Source: a virus
IMG/VR virus record: IMGVR_UViG_3300010384_000005
Reading direction: 5' to 3' (one strand)
Length of the DNA: 64,000 bases
The position numbers and the translations under genes were made by a program. Below the pieces are notes generated by a model that worked only from the letters and a program-made list of their open reading frames with translations, did not search any database and was not told the DNA's origin. Of the stretch, positions 20,766 to 59,763 are shown one piece after another (position 1 is the first letter of the stretch; every line of letters begins with the position of its first letter).

Positions 20766-22595
20766 ATGCCAATGCCGCCAGTCAGTGAGCGACAGCGTAA
20801 AGCTATGTTCGCGGCCGCGGCAGGCCATAGCAATCTCGGCATACCCAAGAAGATAGGCGAAGAGTTCGTGGGCAAAGACGCCGTGGAAGCTCCACCGCTT
20901 GCCGCTGGTGTGATCTTCATCGCTCCGGATGGTGCTGTTCTCCTGCTCTGCCGAAGCGCACAGGAAGCCAACTACGGTGGCCATTGGGCTCTTCCTGGCG
21001 GGAAGGGCGAAGACGGCGAAACGCCTTGGCAGATCGCATGCCGCGAAGCTGAAGAAGAAATTGGGGCCGCAAACAAGCACGCATGGATTGGTGAGCCGAC
21101 CATAGCCGATGAGGTCACGACTCCCACCGGTATGGTGTTCACGACCTTCGTGCAGCCGGTTCGCTATCGCTTTGTCCCTGAAATCGATGCTGAGCACTGC
21201 GGATATGTATGGGCCACGGCTGATTGCCTCCCGAGCCCGATGCACCCGCAAGTAGCTCGTGTCCTTGGTATGCTCTTTCCTGAAGGTTCGGAAGAAATGG
21301 AAGCCAGAGATTCACGACCGATCTTTGCCGAAGATGGCGCTGCGGTAGGGATCGCTGAGGGCATAGCGTTTGACCGCGCCTCTGTTCGTTCCAAGGATGC
21401 GGACGGCCATATGCGGGTGGAGATCACACCGATCTCAAAGGCGAATGTATGCCCGTATTATGGCCGTGAGATTCCGAACTGGATGTCTCTCGGGCTTGAT
21501 CCAGAGCGGGTCTACAACCTCTACCGTGACCCGGAAGAGCTTGCAAAGGGCGCTGAGACATTCGCCGGTAAGCCGGTGATGATCATTCACAAGGCAACGA
21601 AGGCCGACAATCATCCGCGCGAAGTAGTGGTGGGTGCGGTAGGGGATGGGGTTGTATTCGATCCGCCTTATCTCAAGGCCCCTCTGATCATTTGGGACGG
21701 CGAAGCGATCGGTCTCATTGAGAGCGGCGAACAGCGTGAACTTTCGAGTTCATACCGATATGTCCCCGTGATGACGCCGGGCGTCGGCCCGGACGGCCAA
21801 CGATATGACGGCCGAATGACCGAAATCGTTGGCAATCACGTCGCTCTCGTTTCCGCCGGCCGCGCCGGATCGGATGTTTTTGTCCAGGACAACCTACCCG
21901 CCGGTTTGGCGGCAACCACTCCCAACAGCGGAATCCCGGCTGGCGGGGCTAAGCGGGCCCCGGCCCATGATGAAAAGGAGACAGAGATGTCGAAAGCTAA
22001 GGATAGTCGGGCCCGAGACGAAGGCCTGATGGAGCGTATCAAGGAAAAGGTCTCGGCCGAAGACTATAAGGCCCTTGACGAACTGATGGCTGGCAAAGCC
22101 AACGACGAAGACAAGGAAGAAGAAAAGAAGGCCGCCGACGAAGAGTCCAAGGCTGAGGAAAGGGCTGAAAAGTCCGAAGACAAAGCCAAGGATAAGGCTG
22201 CAAAGGACGAGGAAGAGGACGACAAGGAAAAGGCAGAGGACGAAGAGGAAGGCGTTTCCAAGGAAGCCATGGACTCCGCCATCAAGGCTGCTGTCATTGG
22301 GGAACGCAAGGCGCAGGCCGCTATCCGTGACGCCGAACGCTTCATCCGTCCGTGGGTCGGTGATCTCGCCGTGGCCTTTGATTCTGCCGATGATTACTAC
22401 AAGGCTGCTATCGAAGCTAATGGTCGCTCTGTCAAGGATGTCCATCCTTCCGCATATCGCGCCATCCTCGAAATGATCCCTAAGCCCGGCCAACAGCGCA
22501 CCCCGACGCCGCGCCTGGCAATGGACAGCGCCAAGTCCAACGGTTTCGCTGAACGGTTCCCGGAAGCGGCCCGCATCGGCGTCAGCCTCCGCTAA
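20766..22595 (+). CDS. Nudix hydrolase-DUF2213 head maturation protease/scaffold fusion
   Basis: Perfect Nudix box GKGEDGE-TPWQIAC-REAEEEIG. DUF2213 motifs ISKANVCPYYGREIP, ELSSSYRY, NHVALV..GRAG. D/E/K-rich scaffold tail. Confidence 0.85.
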   Translation: MPMPPVSERQRKAMFAAAAGHSNLGIPKKIGEEFVGKDAVEAPPLAAGVIFIAPDGAVLLLCRSAQEANYGGHWALPGGKGEDGETPWQIACREAEEEIGAANKHAWIGEPTIADEVTTPTGMVFTTFVQPVRYRFVPEIDAEHCGYVWATADCLPSPMHPQVARVLGMLFPEGSEEMEARDSRPIFAEDGAAVGIAEGIAFDRASVRSKDADGHMRVEITPISKANVCPYYGREIPNWMSLGLDPERVYNLYRDPEELAKGAETFAGKPVMIIHKATKADNHPREVVVGAVGDGVVFDPPYLKAPLIIWDGEAIGLIESGEQRELSSSYRYVPVMTPGVGPDGQRYDGRMTEIVGNHVALVSAGRAGSDVFVQDNLPAGLAATTPNSGIPAGGAKRAPAHDEKETEMSKAKDSRARDEGLMERIKEKVSAEDYKALDELMAGKANDEDKEEEKKAADEESKAEERAEKSEDKAKDKAAKDEEEDDKEKAEDEEEGVSKEAMDSAIKAAVIGERKAQAAIRDAERFIRPWVGDLAVAFDSADDYYKAAIEANGRSVKDVHPSAYRAILEMIPKPGQQRTPTPRLAMDSAKSNGFAERFPEAARIGVSLR

Positions 22596-28627: not shown

Positions 28628-30589
28628 ATGACGTCGATCCCGGCCTCACAAATCGTGCGCGTCAATCCGAACGTGCTCAATGCCGGCGGCAGTGGGCTCG
28701 TTCTTAACGGCCTGATGCTGACCCAGAATACGCAGGTGCCGACCGGAACGGTTTTGTCGTTTCCGAACGACGGCGTTTCTGTCTCCAACTATTTCGGGCC
28801 ATCGGCGCTGGAGACCGCGATTGCGGCCATCTATTTCAACGGCTTCAACACATCCACGCAGAAGCCCGGTGAAATCCTGTTTGCGCAGTATAATTCCGCA
28901 TCTGTGGCGGCTTATCTGCGTGGCGGCCCGGTCAATCAGTTGACGATCCCGCAGCTTCAGGGTCTTTCTGGTTCGCTGTCCATTGTCATGGATGGCTACA
29001 CCTATTCTGCCGCCAGCATCAATCTTTCTGGCGCCACGAGCTATTCTGCCGCTGCCACGCTCATTCAGACGGGCCTCAATACGGCCCTTCCGTCTGCCGC
29101 AAGCGTGACGGGTTCGATCGCCGCAGGCACCGCATCTGTGACCGCCTCCATCGCTGGCAATACCATGTATGTGACGGCCGTCAGCTCTGGTACACTGGTT
29201 GTGGGCGCGGTTCTGACTGGTACGGGTGTGACCGCAGGCACTCAGATCGATGCGCAGATTTCCGGCACGCCTGGTGGCATCGGTGAATATGCGGTATCGA
29301 AGACGCAGGTCATTGCGAGCGAAACTATTACCGCTTCCTATGGCACCTTGACCGTGACAGCCGTTTCGTCTGGCACCCTGTCTGTCGGTCAAACCATCAC
29401 TGGCGGCACCACGCTTGCCAATACCAACATTACCGCCCTTGGTACGGGCACGGGCCTTACTGGCACCTATATCGTCAATCTGACGCAGACCGTCTCCAGC
29501 GGATCACTGACGGCCACCGGATCTGCCCTCGCGGTATCCTTTGACTCTGTCTCTGGCGGCTTCGTCATCAAGTCCGGCTCGCGTGGCAATCAGTCCACCG
29601 TTGCTTATGCAACCGGTACTCTTGCCGCCCCGATCTTCGTGACACAGGTAACCGGTGCAGTTCTTTCTCAGGGTGCCACAGCGACCAGCCCTTCTGCGTT
29701 CATGACCTCCATCACGAACCTTACCCAGAATTGGGCAACGTTCATGACGCTCTTTGATCCAGACAATGGTTCGGGCTGCGTTCAGAAGCTGGAATTCGCT
29801 GTTTGGACCAACAATCAGAACAAGCGTTGGGCCTACATCGCGTGGGATACCGATGTCACCCCGACGGCAAGCAACAATGCCACGACGAGCTTCGGCAACA
29901 TCGTGCAGGCAGCGAACTATGATGGCATCGCCCCGATCTATCAGCCGCTCAACGCCTCTACGCCGGCCGTCGATATCGCGGCTTTTGTCTGTGGCATCGC
30001 GGCCTCAATTGACTTCACGGCATTGAACGGGCGCATCACCTTTGCCTTCCGCGGCCAGGATGGCCTTATCGCTGGCGTCACCGATGCCACGACGGCCAAT
30101 AACCTGACGGCTAATGGCTACAACTTCTATGGTGCATACGCGACGGCTAATCAGCAGTTCGTGGAATTCCAAACCGGTCTCGTCTCAGGTGAGTTCCAGT
30201 GGCTGGACAGTTATGTCAACCAGATTTGGTTGAATAATGCTCTTCAGCTCGCCCTTATGGAGCTTCTGCAGAACGTCAATTCCATTCCCTACAATAATCA
30301 AGGGTATGGACTGATGCGGGCCGCATGCCTTGATCCCATCCAGGCAGCTTTGAACGCTGGCGTCATCCGAGCCGGCGTTACGCTCTCCAATCTTCAGAGA
30401 GCGCAGGTCCGCAACGCTACTGGAACCGATACCGCTTGGCAGGTCATTCAGCAGCAGGGTTGGTATCTCCAGATCGTTGATGCTGCTCCGCAGGTCAGGC
30501 AGGCCCGTCAGTCGCCTCCGAGCACCTTCTATTATACAGATGGTCAATCGGTGCAAACCATTGTTTTGAATAGCATTTTGGTCCAGTAA
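28628..30589 (+). CDS. Tail sheath protein (DUF3383)
   Basis: [54 protein letters not shown]. Confidence 0.9.
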
Positions 30590-32418: not shown

Positions 32419-34671
32419 TTGGGGACCATAATCGATAGCCTCATCGTTGCGCTAAAATTAGACCCTTCTGAATATAAGAAGGGTTCGAAAGAGGTCGCTG
32501 ACACCTCGAAAAAGACCACCGAGCAAGTCGTCAAGGGCGGCAAGTCCATTGAGGAGTCGAGCAAAAAGGCTGCCGACTCCATCAGCAAGGTCACACGTGA
32601 AGTCCTCGGGCTTTACGCCGTCTTTGTTGGTGCCCGCGGGATCAAGGAGTTCATCGGTGATCTTATAGGGGCCGACGCTGCCCTTGGCCGGTTCTCGCGT
32701 AATCTCAACACCTCTCCACAAACGCTCTATGCATGGGGCGCAGCTGCCGAGCGGGTAGGCGGCTCGAACGAAGCCACAGCGGCAACGTTCGAGCGCATCG
32801 GCAAGGCGCTTTTCGATTTGCACCGCAACGGGCAGGCCCTTCCGAAGGAATATGCCCAGCTTCAAGCCCTTACGGGCATGAACATCGACCGTGATCACGG
32901 TGTCGACAAGTTCCTTCAAGATACCGCTGCTGCGCTACAGCGGCTCAACCAGATAGATCCGTCGCAGGTTCATTTCATCGCCCAGGGCATGGGCATCGAT
33001 GATGGAACCGCGAACGTCATGATCAAATACGGTTCAGCCATTGGAGCCTATATTGATCAGTTGAAGAAACTCGCGCCGCAGAACGAAGCCATCAAGGCGG
33101 CACAAGAGCTTCAGGACAAGTGGGCGACACTTCAGCAGACCGCCGTCAATCTCGCTAATACCATTCTCGATAAACTTGGCCCTCAGATCGCCGATCTTCT
33201 CACGAAGATGACGGATTGGATCTCCAAGAATGGAGATTGGATCAACTCTGGCATTGTAAAAGCCGTTGGCGAGTTCGCCGATTATCTGAAGTCCATCGAC
33301 TGGAATGCGGTCGGGCAGGGCTTGAAGGAATTTGGCAATGACGCAAAGGCTGTGGCTGATGCGCTAGGAGGGGTAGTTCGAGCAACTGAAATCCTGATTG
33401 GTCTTTGGGCTGGCGGCAAAGCTCTTGGGATGATCGGGAGCCTTCGCAATATCATTGGCGGCGGCAGTGCATCTGCGGCGTCTGCAGGCGCAAGCAGTGG
33501 CCTGATGGCGTTCCTCGGCAAAGCTGGAATTGTGGCAGCTGGCATCGGAACTGCCATCTGGGGAGCCGAAAAATATAAGGAAAGGCATGCAGCGGGCCAA
33601 ATCGAAACCCAAGAGCAGCAAGATCGGATCGATAAATTCAATCAATGGCGTTCTGGTCATAAAGGGGCGTTCTCTTCTTGGCTGGACTCACTATTTGGCG
33701 GGAACAAAGATGCCAGCGGCCATGCTGATGCTTTGCAGAATAATCCGGCTTTGGGAGCTGCGGTTCTCGGCAACGGTAGGGATGGCGCACTAGATTCGTT
33801 CCTTGGCGGTACGGTAGATGGTCGTCCAATCTCTAAATCTAATCCTGTTCCGGTAGTCGCCGCTGATCAGCAGAGCGGTGGCGGGTTCTGGAGCAAGCTT
33901 GGAAGCGCCATCGGCAGTTTCTTTGGTGGTGGTGCTACTTCCGGAGCAGCATCGGCGGGTTCTTCAGATAATAGTAGCGGGCCAGTACAAGCGATTGGCC
34001 CATCTGCCGGCGAGAGAGGCTGGTGGACAAAAGATCGTCAAAAACATGCCTTTGACCGGCTTACTAAAGAAGCTGGATTAAGCCCACAGGGAGCGAAAGC
34101 ACTTATTTCTCGCTGGATGAATGTTGAAGCATCTGGCGGCCCGGGCGAAGTTAATTCGATCGGCGCTACTGGTATTGCCCAAATGCTCGGCCCTCGAAAG
34201 CGCCGCTTGCTCCAGATGGCGCAAGAGCGGGGTGTTCCCGTCAAAGATTATGATCTTCAACTCAGCCACATTATTGAAGAGCTTAACGGTTCCGAGGCAA
34301 GGGCGGCACAACGGTTGCGGAGCGCCAAGACGGCTGAGGAAGGCGCGATTGGTGCAAGTATGTTTGAACGGGCTGAGGGATATAATTCCCTGACGGGTCG
34401 GGATAACTTCACCGGGCGCACATTGGGTGGCATGCGTGGAATGGATAAATTCGTTGGGGATACTCTTGCTGGAGCTGCCCTAAGTTCCCGCCTGTCGACC
34501 ATTTCCAATGATAACCGTTCATCCACATCTACAACATCGCATCAATTCAGCGTTGGGCAGATCAACGTCAACGCTCCCAACGCGACGGATGCTCAGGGTA
34601 TCGCGAGCAAGGTCACGGATGCGATGGTTAGATCTACGGCTGCAGCAACGGCAAATTATGGACCACGATAA
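32419..34671 (+). CDS. Tape measure protein with C-terminal tail-lysozyme domain
   Basis: TIIDSLIVALKLD start and a helical A/G-rich body. C-terminal GLSPQGAKALIS...E.......GATGIAQ...R...QL..IIEEL...FER resembles Phage_lysozyme2. Confidence 0.88.
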   Translation: MGTIIDSLIVALKLDPSEYKKGSKEVADTSKKTTEQVVKGGKSIEESSKKAADSISKVTREVLGLYAVFVGARGIKEFIGDLIGADAALGRFSRNLNTSPQTLYAWGAAAERVGGSNEATAATFERIGKALFDLHRNGQALPKEYAQLQALTGMNIDRDHGVDKFLQDTAAALQRLNQIDPSQVHFIAQGMGIDDGTANVMIKYGSAIGAYIDQLKKLAPQNEAIKAAQELQDKWATLQQTAVNLANTILDKLGPQIADLLTKMTDWISKNGDWINSGIVKAVGEFADYLKSIDWNAVGQGLKEFGNDAKAVADALGGVVRATEILIGLWAGGKALGMIGSLRNIIGGGSASAASAGASSGLMAFLGKAGIVAAGIGTAIWGAEKYKERHAAGQIETQEQQDRIDKFNQWRSGHKGAFSSWLDSLFGGNKDASGHADALQNNPALGAAVLGNGRDGALDSFLGGTVDGRPISKSNPVPVVAADQQSGGGFWSKLGSAIGSFFGGGATSGAASAGSSDNSSGPVQAIGPSAGERGWWTKDRQKHAFDRLTKEAGLSPQGAKALISRWMNVEASGGPGEVNSIGATGIAQMLGPRKRRLLQMAQERGVPVKDYDLQLSHIIEELNGSEARAAQRLRSAKTAEEGAIGASMFERAEGYNSLTGRDNFTGRTLGGMRGMDKFVGDTLAGAALSSRLSTISNDNRSSTSTTSHQFSVGQINVNAPNATDAQGIASKVTDAMVRSTAAATANYGPR

Positions 34672-35312
34672 TGGCATTCCCGGTAAACGTTCCCCGCGTG
34701 CCGGGAGTGCCGTCCGTTCTATTTGCGGCGGGCGCGGGACAAATCATCTCATTACTGACGCAGGACGCCGTCTCGCTCTTCAGCGGTGGTTCCCTACAGC
34801 AGCCATGGGGTATCTATCTGGGTGGCTCGCCAGTCGTCTTGGCTGACAACGTCGTCTCGTTCGATTTCAGACAGCAATATACGATCTCTGATTACCCCGT
34901 AGAGCAGGGGGCCTTTGCTTCCTACAATAAAGTGCAAATCCCGTTTGATGGCCGATTCCGGTTCTCCACGGGCGGATCTGATGATGATAAGTCCGCATTC
35001 GTCCAATCGATACGCGATATCATCGGTGACCTGAATCTCTATACAATCGTCACGCCGATCGCGATCTATTCGAGTGTAAACCTCACGCATTGGGATTACG
35101 GACAGACGGCTACCAATGGCGTAGGGTTGCTCACCATAGATGTCTGGACGGAGGAGGTGCGCGAAACAGGCGTGCAGGCGATGTCCAACACTCAGAGCCC
35201 TACTGCTGCCTCGCAGGTAAACGGTGGAACGGTTCAACCGGTTTCCGCTACCTCATTGCAGTCGGCCCAAACTGGCGCGATACGGTCCTCTGGCGGCCGA
35301 TTGGCGGGATAG
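34671..35312 (+). CDS. Baseplate/distal tail protein
   Basis: WGIY...ISDYPVEQGAFASYNKV motif, follows the tape measure. Confidence 0.8.
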   Translation: MAFPVNVPRVPGVPSVLFAAGAGQIISLLTQDAVSLFSGGSLQQPWGIYLGGSPVVLADNVVSFDFRQQYTISDYPVEQGAFASYNKVQIPFDGRFRFSTGGSDDDKSAFVQSIRDIIGDLNLYTIVTPIAIYSSVNLTHWDYGQTATNGVGLLTIDVWTEEVRETGVQAMSNTQSPTAASQVNGGTVQPVSATSLQSAQTGAIRSSGGRLAG

Positions 35313-35317
35313 CAAAC

Positions 35318-35620
35318 ATGTTGATTGTTCCGCTACAGGCCGTTCCAAATCAGACGGTTACCGTGACGCTCAATGATCAGGTCACGCAAATCAATGTCTA
35401 TCAGACCTATAATGGCCTGTTTATCGATATTTATTTGGAAAATGATCTCATCATAGGTGGCGTGATTTGTGAAAATCAAAATCGCATCATCAGGTCGGCC
35501 TATCTCGGTTATTCCGGTGATCTGGCATGGATCGATGTTCAGGGAGCAAGCGATCCGGATTATACTGGGATCGGAACGCGGTTCTTTCTGGCATATCTCA
35601 CGCCGGAAGAATTGGCTTAG
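35318..35620 (+). CDS. Baseplate protein (plug-like)
   Basis: IVPLQAVPNQT.TV.L...G...D..G..DP.Y.G.G.RF.L.Y. Confidence 0.8.
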   Translation: MLIVPLQAVPNQTVTVTLNDQVTQINVYQTYNGLFIDIYLENDLIIGGVICENQNRIIRSAYLGYSGDLAWIDVQGASDPDYTGIGTRFFLAYLTPEELA

Positions 35621-35624
35621 GCCA

Positions 35625-36239
35625 TCACTGATCCCAGTTGAAATCCATTGTGCCCATGTTGGTTTCAACTGAAACATTCAAAGGGTTGCATTCATAGGAG
35701 CCAACTGCGAAGCGCTCGCCATATGTCAAGTTTAATTGATTGTCCGGCGTCTCAGGCATAAGCAAGCGAGAAGTATATCTGCATTTCCCCTTGTTTACAG
35801 TTACCGACTTGACGGTGATACTATTTTCAAGGCTCGTTAAAATGACAGTCCAGTTGTCCATTGGTGAGAAGTTTGGGGACCCGATCGCGGATGGAATATT
35901 GTATTTATTAGCGACCAAACCATTTTCCGCGCCCATGTTCCAGTGAACATCGGTGTTCCCTCTAGGAGTATCAATAACGACTTCGATCGGGTCGCAATAA
36001 TACGTGCCGGCGTTAAAGGTCTGGCCGAATTTCAGGTTGATTGGCAGCGGAACCCCACCGCCATGCAAGCAGCCGCGATTCACATCGATATGATCGATTG
36101 TTAAATCATCGACTTTCGACGTGATTTGTAGATCGAAGTATCGGAAATCGCCGCTTACTGGTTGCTTGTTGGCGGCGAATGTATCTGCTTTTACGGGGAA
36201 AGCAGCAAGACATAAACTTGCGAATAAAAAAGCGCGCAT
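35625..36239 (-). CDS. Exported protein with two tandem Cys-containing beta domains (moron)
   Basis: Signal peptide MRAFLFASLCLAAFPVKA. Repeated VN(R/K)GxC...L.(F/Y)G..F..G.Y.C.P..V...T..G....W. Antisense to the late operon, GGAGG RBS. Confidence 0.75.
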   Translation of the reverse strand: MRAFLFASLCLAAFPVKADTFAANKQPVSGDFRYFDLQITSKVDDLTIDHIDVNRGCLHGGGVPLPINLKFGQTFNAGTYYCDPIEVVIDTPRGNTDVHWNMGAENGLVANKYNIPSAIGSPNFSPMDNWTVILTSLENSITVKSVTVNKGKCRYTSRLLMPETPDNQLNLTYGERFAVGSYECNPLNVSVETNMGTMDFNWDQ

Positions 36240-36293
36240 GACAGCCTCCAGGGGAGGCCATCATTATCCTGAATCGCGTAAAAGTCGATATGG

Positions 36294-36494
36294 CTATTCT
36301 TTCAGATAGGCATTCCCAATAAGCCAGTCTCGAAGGATGCGGCGGATGGCTTCTTGACGAGTGATGCCTTGATTTTCCGTCGCGAACTTATCGATCGCGC
36401 TCAGATCGGGCTCTTGAACACGAAGCACAATCCGATCGCTTTCTACGCTCGGACGGCCTCGTGATTTTTTGGGCACATTAATTGTTGACGACAT
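36294..36494 (-). CDS. CopG/ribbon-helix-helix regulator
   Basis: KKSRGRPS...IVLRVQEPDLSAIDKFA....ITRQEAIRRIL. Confidence 0.8.
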   Translation of the reverse strand: MSSTINVPKKSRGRPSVESDRIVLRVQEPDLSAIDKFATENQGITRQEAIRRILRDWLIGNAYLKE

Positions 36495-36585
36495 GAATAA
36501 AAGGTGACATAAAATAATCAGCCGCGCAAGATGCTACCAACATCTAACGCGGCCTAACCGAAACCGAACTTTACAGGAGTTCGAT

Positions 36586-36747
36586 ATGGCTAAATCATCT
36601 ATATCTCTTTCTTCGCTTTTCCGTAACCCTGCAGTTCGCGATGCTTTTGAGCGAGCTGAGCGCGATAATGGCGCGGCTTTCGTAATCTTGGCTCCGAAGT
36701 CCCCCACCTTAGGTGGTGGCGCGGCTCGGGTTCTGGAGGTTGCGTGA
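36586..36747 (+). CDS. Small hypothetical protein (53 aa), first gene of the cassette
   Basis: Manual translation MAKSSISLSSLFRNPAVRDAFERAERDNGAAFVILAPKSPTLGGGAARVLEVA, AGGAG RBS. Confidence 0.6.
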   Translation: MAKSSISLSSLFRNPAVRDAFERAERDNGAAFVILAPKSPTLGGGAARVLEVA

Positions 36748-37118
36748 TGGATCGGAGGACAATTCTCAAGCATTTGCCATTTGCTGCTGCTATTCTCGCC
36801 GCACCCGCTGTAGTATCAGCTAAAATGAGCGAAACTCCATTGGAGCGCGTCAATCGCCTTTCGGAGGAGCTTGCAATCGCACTGGACGACTACTGGGATG
36901 GAAAAGCCCACGCCACAGTGTTCCCAGCCTCATCTGGCTACGGCATCAAAATGTCCGTGACTCACGTGGAGGTTGACAAGTTCACTCGTCTTGAACGTCA
37001 TACCGAGGGTCTGAAAAAGGCATTCGCGGAAATCTATCCTGCGAAGAAACTGAACGTCTACAACCAGTTCAAATCGGATGGCGGGACCATTGTCTTCGTT
37101 ACGGCGGAGGAAGTCTGA
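36747..37118 (+). CDS. Hypothetical protein with a Tat-like leader
   Basis: MDRRTILKHLPFAAAILAAPAVVSA. TGATG coupling on both ends. Confidence 0.65.
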   Translation: MDRRTILKHLPFAAAILAAPAVVSAKMSETPLERVNRLSEELAIALDDYWDGKAHATVFPASSGYGIKMSVTHVEVDKFTRLERHTEGLKKAFAEIYPAKKLNVYNQFKSDGGTIVFVTAEEV

Positions 37119-37783
37119 TGGCCGTGGCAAAGAAAGAAGAAATTGGAATCGAGCTTCCGCCGCTGGATATCCGGTTGATGGAAGTGACTGTAATCGGCGA
37201 CAGTCCGCTGATCGTGCATGCTTGGTCGGAAAAGGCCAAGAAGGAAATGCTGGACAAACAGATGAAGAAGGCAAAGCCGGCGAAAGAACCCAAGAACCCG
37301 CAGGCAGACTTCGAAGCTTCAATGTATCGCCTTGCTGATGGTGGATACGGCTTTCCAAGCGTTGCCTTCAAAGCTGCTGCTGTCACGGCTGGAACATCAG
37401 TCGCTGGTTTGACGAAGATCCAAGCACGGCAAGCATTCCATATTCTCGGTGAAGACGCTGACATTGCTGGTGTCTTCGAAGGCTCTAAATCGCGAGTTAA
37501 TTTGATCCGCATAGGCGGCACGTCGCCCACAATGCGTGAAGACATGGTTCGCGTCGGCATGGGTACAGCAGACTTGCGCTATCGCCCTGAGTTTTCAGAG
37601 TGGCATGCAAAGCTTCTCGTTCGATACAATGCTAACGTTTTGAGCGAAAGTCAGATCCTGAACCTACTCAATGTTGCCGGGTTTGCCGTCGGAGTCGGAG
37701 AATGGCGCCCCGAGAAGGACGGCCAATACGGCATGTTCCATGTCGCGACCGAAGCCGATCTTGTGAAACTGGAGGCCGCATGA
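37118..37783 (+). CDS. Stand-alone Cas7/RAMP-like protein (Vipr-like)
   Basis: RAMP motif order: beta1 EVTVIGDSPLIVH; FPSVAFKAA (compare IPGSSLKG of Csm3/Cas7); thumb EDMVRV...DLRYRPEF; C-terminal G-rich loop AGFAVGVGEWRPEKDGQYGMFHV. Confidence 0.75.
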   Translation: MAVAKKEEIGIELPPLDIRLMEVTVIGDSPLIVHAWSEKAKKEMLDKQMKKAKPAKEPKNPQADFEASMYRLADGGYGFPSVAFKAAAVTAGTSVAGLTKIQARQAFHILGEDADIAGVFEGSKSRVNLIRIGGTSPTMREDMVRVGMGTADLRYRPEFSEWHAKLLVRYNANVLSESQILNLLNVAGFAVGVGEWRPEKDGQYGMFHVATEADLVKLEAA

Positions 37784-38286
37784 TGCGCATCGCCGGTTTT
37801 GAATTCGCTGAAGGTGCTCGTTTCCAGGCTGGAGCATCGAAGGACGCCAAGCTCATTGGCGAGCATCTGGAAATGCTTAGGAAGAGGTTCAAGGGTGAAC
37901 TAACGCCCGAGGACGTTCTTGAAGACGCCAAGCATGACAATTCTCCTCTCCATTCGTTTTTCGAATGGAGCGACACCGAGGCGGCTCGGCAATATCGGTT
38001 ACAACAGGCAAGGGGACTGATCCGCGCTGTAGTTGCCGTTTATGTCCGGGAGGATCAACCAGCAGTTAGACAGAAAGCCTATGTTCATATTCCTGAGCCG
38101 AGTGCCCCGCATTATCGAGAGGCCTCGCATGCGATGTCTCAGGCAAAGACGCGAGAAATGGTGCTGAAGTCTGCCCTTGCAGGGCTCCATGCATGGAAGA
38201 AGAAATACAAGGATCTCCAAGAATTCGCAGCGCTGATTTCGATCATCGACAAAATCGATGAGAAATCACTTCAACCAGTAGCATGA
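37780..38286 (+). CDS. Partner protein of the RAMP-like gene (helical, unknown function)
   Basis: ATGA-coupled to the RAMP gene. GELTPEDVLEDAK..NSPLHSFFEWSD.EAA..YRLQQARGLIR motif. Confidence 0.78.
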   Translation: MMRIAGFEFAEGARFQAGASKDAKLIGEHLEMLRKRFKGELTPEDVLEDAKHDNSPLHSFFEWSDTEAARQYRLQQARGLIRAVVAVYVREDQPAVRQKAYVHIPEPSAPHYREASHAMSQAKTREMVLKSALAGLHAWKKKYKDLQEFAALISIIDKIDEKSLQPVA

Positions 38287-38339
38287 GACAGAGGGTTATG
38301 CCGAGAGTTACTTACAACCTCGGACGCGAAAGCGGACAT

Positions 38340-38481
38340 GGCAGGCAGGTCTAGTTGAGTTAAGTCGTGGTCAGGTGTGGACCGGCAGGCGTGTTTAGGC
38401 AACGTCAGTTGAGGCCAGTTAAGCCGAGTTATGGCAGGCGGGGTTAGGCCCGTTATGATTTGGCAAGCTCAGGCAAGCCAT
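38340..38481 (+). repeat. Pentamer array: three GGCA-delimited units of (GNY-NN)8-9, putative guide RNA array
   Basis: GGCA at 38340, 38384 and 38433, followed by 8, 9 and 9 pentamers. Position 1 is G in 25/26, position 3 is C/T in 25/26, and positions 4-5 vary. Confidence 0.85.
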
Positions 38482-38500
38482 TTCTTGGATGCATAATAGA

Positions 38501-38531
38501 AGGCGGTTCTTCGGAGCCGCCTTTTTCTTTT
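38501..38531 (+). terminator. Rho-independent terminator closing the array
   Basis: AGGCGGTTC-TTCG-GAGCCGCCT followed by TTTTCTTT. Confidence 0.85.
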
Positions 38532-38541
38532 GGAGTAAAGG

Positions 38542-39402
38542 ATGTCCTTCACCGAAAAGAAAATCACCGTTCAGTTCAATTTGGCAAACGGCTCATTCGG
38601 CGACGGCAAGAACAATACTGCGATCGTGACAGGTCTGCGTTGCTCGGCAAATATCGATGCTACTGGCGGAGTTTCGAGCAACAGAATGCAGTTAGCAGTC
38701 TACGGTCTGCCCTTGTCGTTGATGAACCAGTTGAGCACGGTCGGAACCCAGTACAACTCGCTCTATAAGAATAGCATTACCGTTGAAGCTGGCGACGATA
38801 CCACAGGAATGTCTCTTGTTTTTGGAGGTGTGATTTTTTCCGCATTCGTAGACGCTCAGAACATGCCAGATGTAGCGTTTCGTGTTCAGGCGGCTCCCGG
38901 CCCATTCCAAGCAGTGAAACCCGTTCCCGCCCTAAGCATAAAGGGCTCTGCGGATGCTGCCGGGATGATGGGTAATCTCGCTAAGCAGATGGGGCTAGCC
39001 TTCGAGAACAACGGCGTTCAAGTGAAGTTAGCAAATCCGTATTTCGGCGGAACGGCTTGGACGCAGGCCATGGCGATAGCACGTCACGGCAATTTCGACC
39101 TGATCTACGAGCCGAACAAGATGGTGATCTCTCCACGAGGGCAGCCGCGGCAGGGGGATGCCATCCTGATCTCGCCCGATACCGGACTGGTCGGCTATCC
39201 GATGTTTTCGGAAAACATGGTTGTTGTTCGCTGCCTGTTTAATCCGGCGGTAAAGCAACTTTCTCTTGTTGAGGTCAAAAGCGACCTCACGCCGGCCAAC
39301 GGCAAATGGCAGGTCAAGAGCATCACCTATGAATTGGAATCGCAGACCCCCGGAGGGCGGTGGTTCATGGTCCTCGAACTGATCGCTATAGGAACACAAT
39401 AG
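38542..39402 (+). CDS. Baseplate hub protein
   Basis: MSF..K.I...F.L...I...GL..S.MN.LS...I..DTGLVGYP...W.V....Y.LES....G.WF. GGAG RBS. Confidence 0.85.
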   Translation: MSFTEKKITVQFNLANGSFGDGKNNTAIVTGLRCSANIDATGGVSSNRMQLAVYGLPLSLMNQLSTVGTQYNSLYKNSITVEAGDDTTGMSLVFGGVIFSAFVDAQNMPDVAFRVQAAPGPFQAVKPVPALSIKGSADAAGMMGNLAKQMGLAFENNGVQVKLANPYFGGTAWTQAMAIARHGNFDLIYEPNKMVISPRGQPRQGDAILISPDTGLVGYPMFSENMVVVRCLFNPAVKQLSLVEVKSDLTPANGKWQVKSITYELESQTPGGRWFMVLELIAIGTQ

Positions 39403-58537: not shown

Positions 58538-58776
58538 GCGGCTAACTCCCGGATTTGACAGGGGGAATTGACGGGCTCATGTTCCCGCGACTTCTGGGGG
58601 AACGGTTTATGAAGGGTCTGATAAGCTTCGACTTGCTGCGGCTGGACGGGTATGAGCGCAAGGGCGGCGGTGAGGGCTGCACGCATTGCAAACTCGCTCG
58701 GATAAAGCGCCGTCTCTGGCAATTCCGTAACATAAGCCTTGCGAGCGGCTTCGATCATTTCAGGTGTCGGTTTCAT
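58534..58776 (-). CDS. Hypothetical phage protein
   Basis: PTPEMIEAA...AL.AALA motif. Confidence 0.65.
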   Translation of the reverse strand: MKPTPEMIEAARKAYVTELPETALYPSEFAMRAALTAALALIPVQPQQVEAYQTLHKPFPQKSREHEPVNSPCQIRELAA

Positions 58777-59322: not shown

Positions 59323-59763
59323 TCAATAATCCTTTTCGGAAGGTGCGGCGCTTTTCGCCGGCTCGAACATGTTTCGGTATGGCAGGCTCGGCTTAGGCTG
59401 CCGGCGCAATGCCTTTTCGGATTTGGGGAAAGGTGCGGAGCGGATCGGCTTGGAGGCGCGCGTTTTGAGTCCGTTGGCACGATTATACTGCCGCTTCGCC
59501 TTGGCGATCTGCTTCACGTCCTGATTGGTCTTGCCACCATCGCCACGGTGGCAACAATCGCGGCCGAGAAGTTGGCCCTCCGCAATCGTGATAGGCCTTT
59601 GCTTGTCCGCTTCCGGTCGGAGGGCCTCAGCTATGATATGGTCGATCTCGTAGGGTTTGGCGCCTAGGACGAGGCCGCAGCGCTCGCAGCATATTTTTCC
59701 GTCCCGCTTTGAGCGTTCGACTATCTGTTCTCGTTGGTTTCTTGTGAATTCTCGGCGGGACAT
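59323..59763 (-). CDS. HNH endonuclease
   Basis: RREFT...CE.CG.....YEIDHII...CC.H...KT..D...IAKAKR. Confidence 0.75.
   Translation of the reverse strand: MSRREFTRNQREQIVERSKRDGKICCERCGLVLGAKPYEIDHIIAEALRPEADKQRPITIAEGQLLGRDCCHRGDGGKTNQDVKQIAKAKRQYNRANGLKTRASKPIRSAPFPKSEKALRRQPKPSLPYRNMFEPAKSAAPSEKDY

What the first reader, a model, noticed from the sequence alone, without database searches (positions are those of the whole stretch)
38335..38531. Non-coding GNY-NN pentamer array in three units after a RAMP-like gene: candidate non-contiguous guide RNAs
Seen: after the stop at 38286 come a hairpin leader (CCGAG/CTCGG 38301-38323; CGC-GAAA-GCG 38325-38334) and GGCA spacers at 38340, 38384 and 38433. 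Each spacer is followed by a strict 5-nt period. Unit 1: GGC-AG GTC-TA GTT-GA GTT-AA GTC-GT GGT-CA GGT-GT GGA-CC. Unit 2: GGC-GT GTT-TA GGC-AA CGT-CA GTT-GA GGC-CA GTT-AA GCC-GA GTT-AT. Unit 3: GGC-GG GGT-TA GGC-CC GTT-AT GAT-TT GGC-AA GCT-CA GGC-AA GCC-AT. A strong terminator follows. In the 26 pentamers, position 1 is G in 25, position 3 is Y in 25, and position 2 is G13/T9/C3/A1. The last two bases vary freely and differ between units, so this is a fixed scaffold carrying variable information rather than a microsatellite. The only ATG (38338) stops after 6 codons. Knowledge (my recollection of recent preprints, to be verified): VIPR systems pair a Cas7-like protein with RNAs of alternating GGY/NN motifs, whose NN bases read a gapped dsDNA target. 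Inference: this is such a system, with an unusually high share of GTY triplets.
Basis: partly seen in the sequence, partly recalled or inferred. Interest (0 to 1): 0.96.

Follow-up and report, generated by a model that had tools for sequence, protein, structure and literature searches.

The report
Phage VIPR guide-RNA array, three guides
This non-coding stretch is a three-guide array of a phage VIPR system, the Cas7-like RNA-guided DNA-silencing system first described in 2026 preprints. Its variable bases match capsid, tail and baseplate genes of rival phages but not the phage's own copies, so it is an informative new example of a known kind.

Summary
Positions 38340-38481 hold 26 pentamers of the form G-(G/T)-Y-N-N in three blocks (8, 9 and 9 units), each preceded by a 4-nt GGCA step. 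A hairpin leader comes before the array and an intrinsic terminator after it.

The upstream 221-aa protein is a Vipr:
- A profile of the family hits the solved SUSP1 Vipr structure at E 3.9e-13.
- The predicted fold matches only Cas7-type proteins among its top hits.
- The residues that hold the GGY motif in SUSP1 Vipr are conserved.

Almost all of the 90 related loci fetched with enough flank carry a pentamer array beside vipr, and 82 of 90 keep the same partner gene. In them the scaffold is fixed and the NN bases are near-random.

Reading the NN bases with the published one-base-skip rule gives in-frame matches, with the skipped base at the codon wobble position:
- Guide 2 matches a major-head gene in at least 120 viral contigs.
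- Guide 3 matches the baseplate-hub gene of sibling phages that lack the cassette.
- Guide 1 matches their Dit-like tail gene.
- The phage's own copies mismatch at 3-4 positions.

VIPR, including 'staggered' arrays of this layout, is already described, so this is a new member of a known kind. Expression, processing and silencing were not tested.

The parts
36294..36494 (-). 66-aa ribbon-helix-helix ORF transcribed away from the vipr operon; candidate regulator of the cassette
   Evidence: Pfam RHH_1 at E 0.0016, 18.7 bits, just under the 20.5-bit cutoff. It lies inside the 2.9-kb insertion. The regulatory role is inferred.
36586..37118 (+). Two small ORFs (53 aa at 36586-36747; 124 aa at 36744-37118) directly upstream of vipr; function unknown
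   Evidence: ORF list. No Pfam, PHROG, NCBIfam or PADLOC hit. A promoter-like site lies at 36570-36598.
37118..37783 (+). vipr: 221-aa Cas7-like RAMP protein that would coat the guide RNA, one protomer per pentamer
   Evidence: phmmer to PDB 36pp_D 'SUSP1 Vipr protein' gives E 2.5e-5. The family profile A1 gives E 3.9e-13 over residues 3-188 of 202. The AF2 model has pLDDT 94, and its top 50 Foldseek hits in the PDB are all CRISPR effector-complex chains, type III Csm/Cmr, III-D, III-E Cas7-11 and type VII, at 7-15% identity. SUSP1 H17, R138, D177, W178 and R179 align to H34, R156, E195, W196 and R197.
37780..38286 (+). vap-like accessory gene (167-168 aa) whose ATG overlaps the vipr stop codon; fold and activity unknown
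   Evidence: A homologue sits beside vipr in 82 of 90 related loci. It hits phrog_15946 only. No Pfam, PDB, NCBIfam or PADLOC match. No similarity to SUSP1 vap1.
38301..38339 (+). Array leader: two small hairpins followed by GGACAT just before the first GGCA
   Evidence: Both hairpins form in the MFE fold. The leader is about 85-90% identical in L013 and L012, whereas the array content is not conserved.
38340..38343 (+). Delimiter 1: a 4-nt GGCA step, i.e. a pentamer frame slipped by one base
   Evidence: The sequence GGCA followed by GGC recurs between units in the clade; 221 distinct units were parsed on this delimiter.
38344..38383 (+). Guide 1: 8 pentamers, NN = AG TA GA AA GT CA GT CC
   Evidence: It matches 16/16 in frame in the Dit-like gene of L211 and 14/16 in L226 and L228. 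The phage's own site at 34920 matches only 12/16.
38384..38387 (+). Delimiter 2 (GGCA)
   Evidence: The matches to the targets stop at the delimiters.
38388..38432 (+). Guide 2: 9 pentamers, NN = GT TA AA CA GA CA AA GA AT
   Evidence: It matches 18/18 in at least 120 IMG/VR contigs. In 110 of the 120 inspected the site encodes VYNQEHNEI, and 99 of the reading frames at the hits are 300-349 aa, with the site near residue 76 in those examined. The protein is a Mu gpT-like major head protein. Control patterns gave 0-6 hits.
38433..38436 (+). Delimiter 3 (GGCA)
38437..38481 (+). Guide 3: 9 pentamers, NN = GG TA CC AT TT AA CA AA AT
   Evidence: It matches 18/18 in frame (GYPMFNQNI) in the baseplate-hub genes of L223, L225, L226 and L228; the two compared (L223, L225) are 86-89% identical to the window's own hub. 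The own site at 39193 matches 15/18.
38498..38533 (+). Intrinsic terminator that closes the vipr-vap-array transcription unit
   Evidence: A 12-bp stem with a 4-nt loop followed by a T run; it also forms in the fold.
34920..34942 (+). Own Dit-like gene, the site homologous to the guide 1 target; 4 of 16 guide positions mismatch
   Evidence: The peptide SYNKVQIP is the same as in L226 and L228, but Ser is coded TCC here instead of AGY.
39193..39218 (+). Own baseplate-hub gene, the site homologous to the guide 3 target; 3 of 18 guide positions mismatch
   Evidence: the sequence is GGC TAT CCG ATG TTT TCG GAA AAC AT, so Asn-Gln of the targeted alleles is Ser-Glu here.

Best explanation
This is the guide-RNA array of a VIPR system carried by a ~67-kb myovirus.

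Layout. A 2.9-kb cassette sits between a baseplate-plug gene and the baseplate-hub gene. It holds an RHH ORF, two small ORFs, vipr, a vap-like gene, the array and a terminator.

Transcription and guides. The array is probably transcribed together with vipr and vap. It contains three guides of 8, 9 and 9 pentamers. In each pentamer the G-(G/T)-Y triplet would be gripped by Vipr protomers, one per pentamer. The two N bases stay exposed and pair with the template DNA strand of a target, skipping one target base per pentamer, so that a guide reads positions 1 and 2 of consecutive codons. The 4-nt GGCA step shifts the frame by one base and marks where one guide ends and the next begins.

Targets. 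The three guides are directed at structural genes of competitors:
- the Dit-like and hub genes of sibling phages that share this tail module but lack the cassette;
- the major-head gene of a different, abundant phage group.
The phage's own alleles differ at 3-4 guide positions and so should escape.

Likely effect. Binding most likely silences transcription of the rival's late genes during co-infection or in a lysogen. That outcome is inferred by analogy with SUSP1 VIPR.

Shown here: the anatomy, the protein homology, the conservation pattern and the target matches. Inferred: expression, processing at GGCA, ribonucleoprotein formation, and silencing rather than cleavage.
For: Protein. Sequence homology to the solved SUSP1 Vipr. 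Cas7-type fold. The residues that contact GGY are conserved.

Array. The statistics are far beyond chance.

Association. Almost all of the 90 related loci with enough flank have a pentamer array next to vipr, and 82 of 90 keep the vap homologue.

Scaffold versus information. Over 2197 pentamers in 221 distinct units, position 1 is G in 96%, position 2 is G 79% / T 17%, and position 3 is Y in 94%. Positions 4 and 5 have entropies of 1.92 and 1.97 bits. The leader is conserved but the guides are entirely different in a relative whose Vipr is 94% identical.

Targets. Guide 2 gave at least 120 hits, against 6, 0 and 4 for the reversed-order, 2-nt-skip and 0-nt-skip controls. Guide 3 hits the orthologous hub gene of syntenic siblings that lack vipr. 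Guide 1 hits the orthologous Dit-like gene. No self-match reaches 80% or better, except 15/18 at the diverged hub site. Every match is in frame, with the skipped base at wobble, and on the sense strand, which excludes pairing with mRNA.

Reciprocity. Guides of relatives match this phage's vap gene (20/22 and 16/18) and its sheath gene (15/16), all in frame, while their own copies mismatch.

Architecture. The layout fits the published 'staggered arrays' whose vrRNAs overlap by 1 nt.
Against: - There is no RNA evidence: no public RNA run holds the locus.
- No promoter was recognised between vap and the array, so release of separate guides needs a processing step that nobody has shown for this architecture.
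- The units have no conserved 3' tail, unlike the characterised type II vrRNAs.
- The vap-like protein is unrelated in sequence to SUSP1 vap1 and has no recognisable domain, so the outcome (silencing or cleavage) is open.
- Counted by sequence family rather than by contig, 18-base gapped patterns find 2-3 chance families in IMG/VR. The guide 2 match is therefore weaker taken alone than its 120 hits suggest.
- Guide 1 has only 16 informative bases, and most of its 11 exact hits look like chance.
- The guide 3 pattern with at most 1 mismatch was not found in 401 sampled genomes of the order of Rhizobium leucaenae, so no host-resident target prophage was identified.
Confidence: 0.87

Rival explanations
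1. The array makes one long vrRNA of about 140 nt rather than three separate guides. The GGCA steps are internal register shifts within a single ribonucleoprotein, which carries three target-reading segments on one RNA.
For: There are no internal promoters, terminators, tails or ribozymes between the units. A single leader and a single terminator flank the whole array. Nothing here shows cleavage.
Against: Each target match covers exactly one unit and stops at the delimiters. The three targets lie in different genes and different phages. The number of units varies freely among close relatives, and unit length clusters at 8-12 pentamers. The preprint's Fig. S18 legend describes individual processed vrRNAs.
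Confidence: 0.1
2. The array is a decoy or hijacking RNA (solo-vrRNA style). Its main role would be to redirect or titrate the Vipr proteins of other phages rather than to arm the neighbouring Vipr.
For: Satellites and phages with standalone vrRNAs that redirect foreign VIPR complexes are described (10.64898/2026.10.15.759431, abstract). VIPR loci of relatives target this phage's vap gene, so there is real VIPR-against-VIPR conflict.
Against: The array sits in one unit with an intact vipr and vap, under a conserved leader. Its guides match essential structural genes of competitors, not decoy-like host repeats.
Confidence: 0.02
3. The periodic stretch is a structural or regulatory RNA or DNA element unrelated to guide function (for example a 3' UTR stabiliser or a protein-binding repeat), and the target matches are coincidences.
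For: The region folds more stably than shuffles (z = -4.5). Chance hits at the family level do occur for 18-base gapped patterns.
Against: Guides 1 and 3 hit the orthologues of the genes that flank the cassette, in syntenic sibling phages, in frame and at sites where the own copy differs. That cannot be coincidence. NN entropy is near maximal while the scaffold is fixed. The linkage to a Vipr homologue holds across 90 loci.
Confidence: 0.01

Closest known systems
Type II VIPR of Escherichia phage SUSP1 (vipr agp039, vap1 agp038, four vrRNAs; bioRxiv 10.64898/2026.04.26.720920; structure PDB 36pp)
   Same: The gene order is the same: vipr, then vap, then a downstream RNA array. The Vipr proteins are homologous, with the same G-loop (GVGEWRP here, GVGDWRP in SUSP1) and the same His and Arg contacts. 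Both use 5-nt GGY/NN repeats. Both follow the one-base-skip rule, with the skipped base at codon wobble. In both, the targets are competing mobile elements.
   Different: Vipr identity is only 34%, and only over the C-terminal 65 residues by BLASTP. The vap proteins are unrelated in sequence. SUSP1 vrRNAs are ~100 nt, each with its own leader and a conserved ~40-nt tail with hairpin and pseudoknot. Here the units are 40-45 nt, have no tail, abut one another and are separated only by GGCA. Position 2 of the triplet tolerates T here (17% in the clade, 35% in this array). SUSP1 guides aim mainly at a satellite; these aim at structural genes of sibling and unrelated phages.
'Staggered vrRNA arrays' of other VIPR types (Fig. 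S18 of 10.64898/2026.04.26.720920)
   Same: [quoted passage not shown] This matches the GGCA-G-GC junction here, where two pentamer frames share one G.
   Different: The figure and supplementary tables are not held. I could not check whether this clade, the GGCA delimiter or the type assignment is the same. The preprint states that only the ribozyme-interspersed and single-vrRNA architectures were confirmed by small-RNA sequencing.
CRISPR class 1 Cas7 backbone filaments (Csm3, Cmr4, type VII Cas7)
   Same: The RAMP fold is shared: RRM core, G-loop and thumb. The top structural matches are all CRISPR effector-complex chains of these systems. In both, one protomer binds per fixed RNA step and periodically interrupts base pairing.
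   Different: The RNA step is 5 nt with 2 paired bases, instead of 6 nt with 5 paired. There is no CRISPR array and no other cas gene in the window. The guide information is interleaved with the scaffold rather than carried as a contiguous spacer.
Vipr homologue and array of Mycobacterium phage Quico (QUICO_57) and related actinophages
   Same: About 40% identity to this Vipr over 90% of its length. A ~240-nt GGC-NN array with the same GGCA one-base frame slips lies just upstream of the gene.
   Different: In Quico the array lies upstream rather than downstream, the scaffold is almost purely GGC, and the locus sits in the immunity/early region (Cro, Ant, Xis) rather than in a tail module. The record annotates the gene as hypothetical.

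Membership tests
VIPR system | A Vipr protein: a minimal RAMP (RRM core, G-loop, thumb) homologous to described Viprs | tested here: met
   The family profile hits PDB 36pp 'SUSP1 Vipr protein' at E 3.9e-13 over nearly its full length. The single sequence gives E 2.5e-5. The AF2 model has pLDDT 94 and its top 50 Foldseek hits are all CRISPR effector-complex chains of Cas7 type.
VIPR system | Conservation of the residues that hold the GGY motif in SUSP1 Vipr (H17, R138, D177, W178, R179) | tested here: met
   They align to H34, R156, E195, W196 and R197. R156 and R197 are invariant and H34 is at least 90% conserved in 52 family members. D177 is the conservative Glu here. The residue roles are taken from 10.64898/2026.04.26.720927.
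VIPR system | An adjacent non-coding tandem array of 5-nt units with a fixed GGY (or related) triplet and two variable bases, at least 4 units long | tested here: met
   There are 26 units of G-(G/T)-Y-NN in three blocks. The relaxed position 2 falls under the preprint's 'related consensus'.
VIPR system | The scaffold is conserved and NN is hypervariable among relatives | tested here: met
   Across 221 units and 2197 pentamers, the entropies at positions 1-5 are 0.30, 0.91, 1.28, 1.92 and 1.97 bits. A relative with 94% identical Vipr has a conserved leader but entirely different guides.
VIPR system | The NN bases specify targets by the one-base-skip rule, typically in competing mobile elements and without self-targets | tested here: met
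   Searches give in-frame matches of 16/16, 18/18 and 18/18 in rival phage genes. Controls with 0-nt skip, 2-nt skip or reversed NN order gave 4, 0 and 6 hits against at least 120. The best self-matches are 12/16, 13/18 and 15/18. This is computational only.
VIPR system | A minimal locus with a vipr-accessory (vap) gene and no CRISPR array or other cas genes | tested here: met
   The partner ORF is conserved in 82 of 90 loci. No CRISPR-like repeats occur in the window, and no cas domains in the neighbouring genes. Whether the partner belongs to one of vap1-6 could not be checked.
VIPR system | The vrRNA is expressed, bound by Vipr, and directs dsDNA binding or silencing | not testable with these tools
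   No RNA run holds the locus. Small-RNA sequencing, pull-down and reporter assays are needed.
Type II VIPR (SUSP1 / P. fulva architecture) | Each vrRNA has 9-16 repeats followed by an invariant ~40-nt structured 3' tail | tested here: not met
   The units have 8-9 repeats and abut through GGCA with no tail. Compare the SUSP1 array. The locus is therefore not filed under type II.
Staggered-array VIPR architecture (Fig. S18 of the preprint) | Consecutive vrRNAs occupy frames that overlap by 1 nt, so the end of one is the start of the next | tested here: met
   GGCA followed by GGC is two pentamer frames sharing one G. It recurs at every unit boundary here and in the clade. It matches the legend text only; the figure itself was not seen.

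The most novel reading that the evidence does not exclude
Two linked proposals.

1. In this large Vipr clade, the one-base frame slip (GGCA) is by itself the punctuation that ends one Vipr filament and starts the next. A single transcript would then yield several independent guides with no tail, no ribozyme and no Cas6-like processing.

2. The cassette works as a sibling-exclusion module. Its guides are aimed at the allelic versions of the very genes that flank its insertion site, in cassette-free relatives. The carrier is protected by recoding, for example by switching Ser from AGY to TCC with no change in the peptide.
Probability: 0.35. Interest if true: 0.6.

Novelty: new member of a known kind. 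Interest (0 to 1): 0.45.

Why it matters
VIPR is a newly described RNA-guided DNA-recognition system, so well-resolved natural examples are useful.

- **All three guides have credible natural targets.** These support the one-base-skip code in a Vipr clade far from the characterised type II systems.
- **A clean test case for an unconfirmed architecture.** The tail-less, GGCA-punctuated 'staggered' array has so far only been inferred, and this locus could be used to test it.
- **A visible ecological logic.** The guides hit structural genes of cassette-free sibling phages and of an abundant unrelated phage group. The carrier escapes through a few codon changes, and relatives' arrays aim back at this phage's vap and sheath genes.
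- **Possible practical use.** Guides of 40-45 nt that need no tail could be a more compact format for programmable silencing, if they work as predicted.

Tried and rejected
- **Rfam.** A search of 37500-39000 found only sub-threshold noise.
- **Single-sequence AF2 model of Vipr.** It was useless (pLDDT 36) and was replaced by the alignment-based model.
- **vap-like protein.** Pfam, NCBIfam, PADLOC, a PDB profile search and the ESM Atlas gave no informative hit.
- **RNA evidence.** Only one DNA run was found, holding 7% of the sampled words.
- **Local test of skip rules.** I tested 207 relatives' guides against 1.2 Mb of fetched DNA. The database was too small to separate the rules: mean best match was 0.76 for every rule. 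It did reveal the hits in this phage's vap and sheath genes.
- **Host prophage targets.** The guide 3 pattern with at most 1 mismatch was absent from 401 sampled genomes of the order of Rhizobium leucaenae. A first attempt failed on a handle error.
- **Other G..Y.. runs in the window.** Those at 58615-58649 and 59371-59400 are short, lack the GG core and are at chance level.
- **Own-locus targets in VIPR-positive relatives.** L001-L030 do not carry the guide 1 or guide 3 target sites in their flanks. Their cassettes sit in other genomic contexts.
- **VIPR type (I-VII).** It could not be assigned, because the preprint's supplementary data are not held.

Full report
**What is in the sequence**

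The window is most of a 66,966-base virus record. It is a myovirus with terminase, portal, major head, sheath, tape-measure and baseplate genes.

After the stop codon at 38286 come two small hairpins (38301-38323 and 38325-38334). The array follows:
- GGCA at 38340, then 8 pentamers (38344-38383);
- GGCA at 38384, then 9 pentamers (38388-38432);
- GGCA at 38433, then 9 pentamers (38437-38481);
- a 12-bp terminator stem with a T run at 38498-38533.

Position 1 is G in 25 of 26 pentamers, position 3 is Y in 25 of 26, and position 2 is G13/T9/C3/A1.

A local score for in-phase G..Y.. pentamers is 42 here. Markov simulations of the whole window gave 12.5 +/- 1.4, with a maximum of 17. The binomial probability is about 5e-19. 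Autocorrelation peaks at multiples of 5. Tandem Repeats Finder does not see the array and finds no CRISPR-like repeats anywhere in the window.

One detail of the finding is wrong: further ATGs lie at 38431, 38455 and 38489. None opens a meaningful frame.

**The neighbouring protein is a Vipr**

The 221-aa ORF at 37118-37783 has no Pfam, NCBIfam or PADLOC family. Its only family hit is the unnamed phrog_4652.

- By phmmer it hits PDB 36pp 'SUSP1 Vipr protein' at E 2.5e-5.
- A 52-sequence family profile hits the same chain at E 3.9e-13, covering residues 3-188 of 202.
- The same profile finds the SUSP1 gene in the phage's own genome at E 1.1e-15.
- The alignment-based AlphaFold model is confident (pLDDT 94). 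Its top 50 PDB matches are all CRISPR effector-complex chains (type III Csm/Cmr, III-D, III-E Cas7-11 and type VII) at 7-15% identity.

The structural preprint names the residues that hold G1, G2 and Y3 in SUSP1: H17, R138, D177, W178 and R179. They align to H34, R156, E195, W196 and R197 here. R156 and R197 are invariant in the family.

The family is very large: 4,057 representatives at 50% clustering have E below 0.001. The nearest named homologues are hypothetical proteins of Rhizobium, Agrobacterium, Labrys, Devosia and Mesorhizobium.

**Literature**

VIPR is described in three 2026 preprints from one group, and VIPR arrays were recovered independently by a genomic language-model survey. 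The relevant published points are these:
- a minimal locus of vipr plus vap;
- vrRNAs made of YNNGG repeats with hypervariable NN;
- the one-base-skip rule, with skipped bases at codon wobble positions;
- targets in competing phages and satellites, and sometimes in other VIPR loci;
- seven types with varied array architectures, among them 'staggered arrays' in which vrRNAs overlap by 1 nt (Fig. S18 legend). The staggered type was not among the architectures confirmed by small-RNA sequencing.

**Relatives**

I fetched 90 related loci, 10 genomic and 80 viral, at 43-94% Vipr identity.

- Almost all of those with enough flank have a pentamer array next to vipr. It usually lies about 500 nt downstream, after the partner gene.
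- The partner gene is present in 82 of 90.
- Close relatives show the same layout: a leader, then 1-8 units of 8-12 pentamers, each preceded by GGCA.

Over 221 distinct units (2197 pentamers), position 1 is G in 96%, position 2 is G 79% / T 17%, and position 3 is Y in 94%. Positions 4 and 5 have entropies of 1.92 and 1.97 bits.

L013 has a Vipr 94% identical and a partner protein 92% identical to those here. Its leader is conserved up to the first GGCA. After that the guides are entirely different, and there are four instead of three.

**Targets**

I converted each unit to an NN-x pattern and scanned IMG/VR for exact matches.

In 110 of the 120 the site encodes VYNQEHNEI in frame, and 99 of the reading frames at the hits are 300-349 aa; the site lies near residue 76 in those examined. 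The protein belongs to phrog_371 (major head protein) and Pfam Mu-like_gpT. All wobble bases vary among the contigs while all 18 guide positions stay fixed. Controls with the same dinucleotides gave 6 hits for reversed order, 0 for 2-nt skip and 4 for 0-nt skip. Those control hits fall into 2-3 unrelated sequence families each. This is why I rate guide 2 taken alone as good evidence but not overwhelming. The window has no homologue of that head protein; its own head protein is phrog_264.

*Guide 3* hit 8 contigs. Four of them (L223, L225, L226, L228) carry GYPMFNQNI in frame in a baseplate-hub gene; the hubs of L223 and L225 are 86-89% identical to the window's own hub at 38542-39402, the gene immediately downstream of the array. 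The homologous own site at 39193 differs at 3 of 18 guide positions, with Asn-Gln replaced by Ser-Glu.

*Guide 1* (16 informative bases) gave 11 hits, mostly noise. One (L211) lies in frame in a Dit-like gene 54% identical to the window's 34671-35312. The homologous sites in L226 and L228 match 14/16. The own site at 34920 matches only 12/16 although it encodes the same peptide, SYNKVQIP, because Ser is coded TCC instead of AGY.

L223 and L226 are collinear with window 27-42.8 kb but lack 35614-38542, and they have no vipr. The VIPR unit is therefore a ~2.9-kb insertion between the Pam3 gp18-like plug gene and the hub gene. Two of its guides aim at the cassette-free alleles of nearby tail and baseplate genes: the hub gene directly downstream of the insertion and the Dit-like gene two genes upstream of it.

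All matches are identical to the coding strand. The RNA would therefore pair with the template DNA strand and could not pair with the mRNA.

**Reciprocal targeting**

Guides from relatives match this phage in frame:
- L021 unit 1 matches 20/22 at 38014 in the vap-like gene; its own vap matches only 17/22;
- L014 matches 16/18 at 38203, also in vap;
- L013 matches 15/16 at 30116 in the sheath gene.

These are individually marginal given the small database. However, all three are sense-strand and in frame 0, and the L021 guide also matches the vap genes of five other loci at 20-21/22.

**How it most likely works**

The array is probably co-transcribed with vipr and vap. There is a promoter-like site at 36570-36598, no promoter before the array, and one terminator after it. 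Vipr protomers would bind one pentamer each and present NN.

The 4-nt GGCA step breaks the 5-nt register and delimits the guides. In support, every target match spans exactly one unit, from its first pentamer to its last, and does not extend into GGCA.

Whether the RNA is physically cut there, and by what, is unknown. So is whether binding silences or destroys the target, because the partner protein has no recognisable domain and is unrelated to SUSP1 vap1.

**Comparison and verdict**

The locus meets every VIPR criterion that can be tested in silico. It fails the type II criterion of a conserved 3' tail and fits the 'staggered' architecture instead.

The same GGCA-slipped array lies upstream of the Vipr homologue of Mycobacterium phage Quico. 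The architecture therefore spans phages of Actinobacteria and of Alphaproteobacteria.

An earlier follow-up note of this scan, on the vipr gene itself, reached the same reading. I reached mine from my own calls.

This is a new member of a known kind. Its value lies in the resolved natural targets and in being a clean test case for tail-less staggered guides.

Noticed in passing
L243:1608-1848 (Mycobacterium phage Quico, NC_028751.1 about 37314-37554): A ~240-nt GGC-NN pentamer array with the same GGCA one-base frame slips lies just upstream of QUICO_57. That gene is a 'hypothetical protein' about 40% identical to this Vipr. The locus sits in the Cro/Ant/Xis region. About 30 mycobacteriophage and Gordonia phage records carry the homologue.
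   Followed up: partly
window 38014-38045, 38203-38228 and 30116-30138: Guides of related VIPR loci match this phage's vap-like gene (L021 20/22, L014 16/18) and its tail-sheath gene (L013 15/16). All are in frame and on the sense strand, while the homologous sites in their own loci mismatch. This suggests VIPR-against-VIPR conflict.
   Followed up: partly
L011 and L123 (both from IMGVR_UViG_3300026078_000107): One 18.6-kb viral contig carries a Vipr 90% identical to this one and also the Mu gpT-like major head gene that guide 2 matches 18/18. The cassette therefore moves between phages with different head modules.
   Followed up: no
window 36294-36494 (-): A small ribbon-helix-helix ORF, just under the Pfam cutoff, is transcribed away from the vipr operon inside the inserted cassette. 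It may regulate the cassette.
   Followed up: partly
   Followed up: no
window 20766-22595: The head maturation protease ORF carries an N-terminal NUDIX hydrolase region (phrog_1198 and phrog_1185 hits at residues ~33-166).
   Followed up: no
window 58615-58649 and 59371-59400: Two short runs of G..Y.. pentamers (7 and 6 units) lack the GG core. They are at the level seen in shuffled sequence and are not VIPR arrays.
   Followed up: yes
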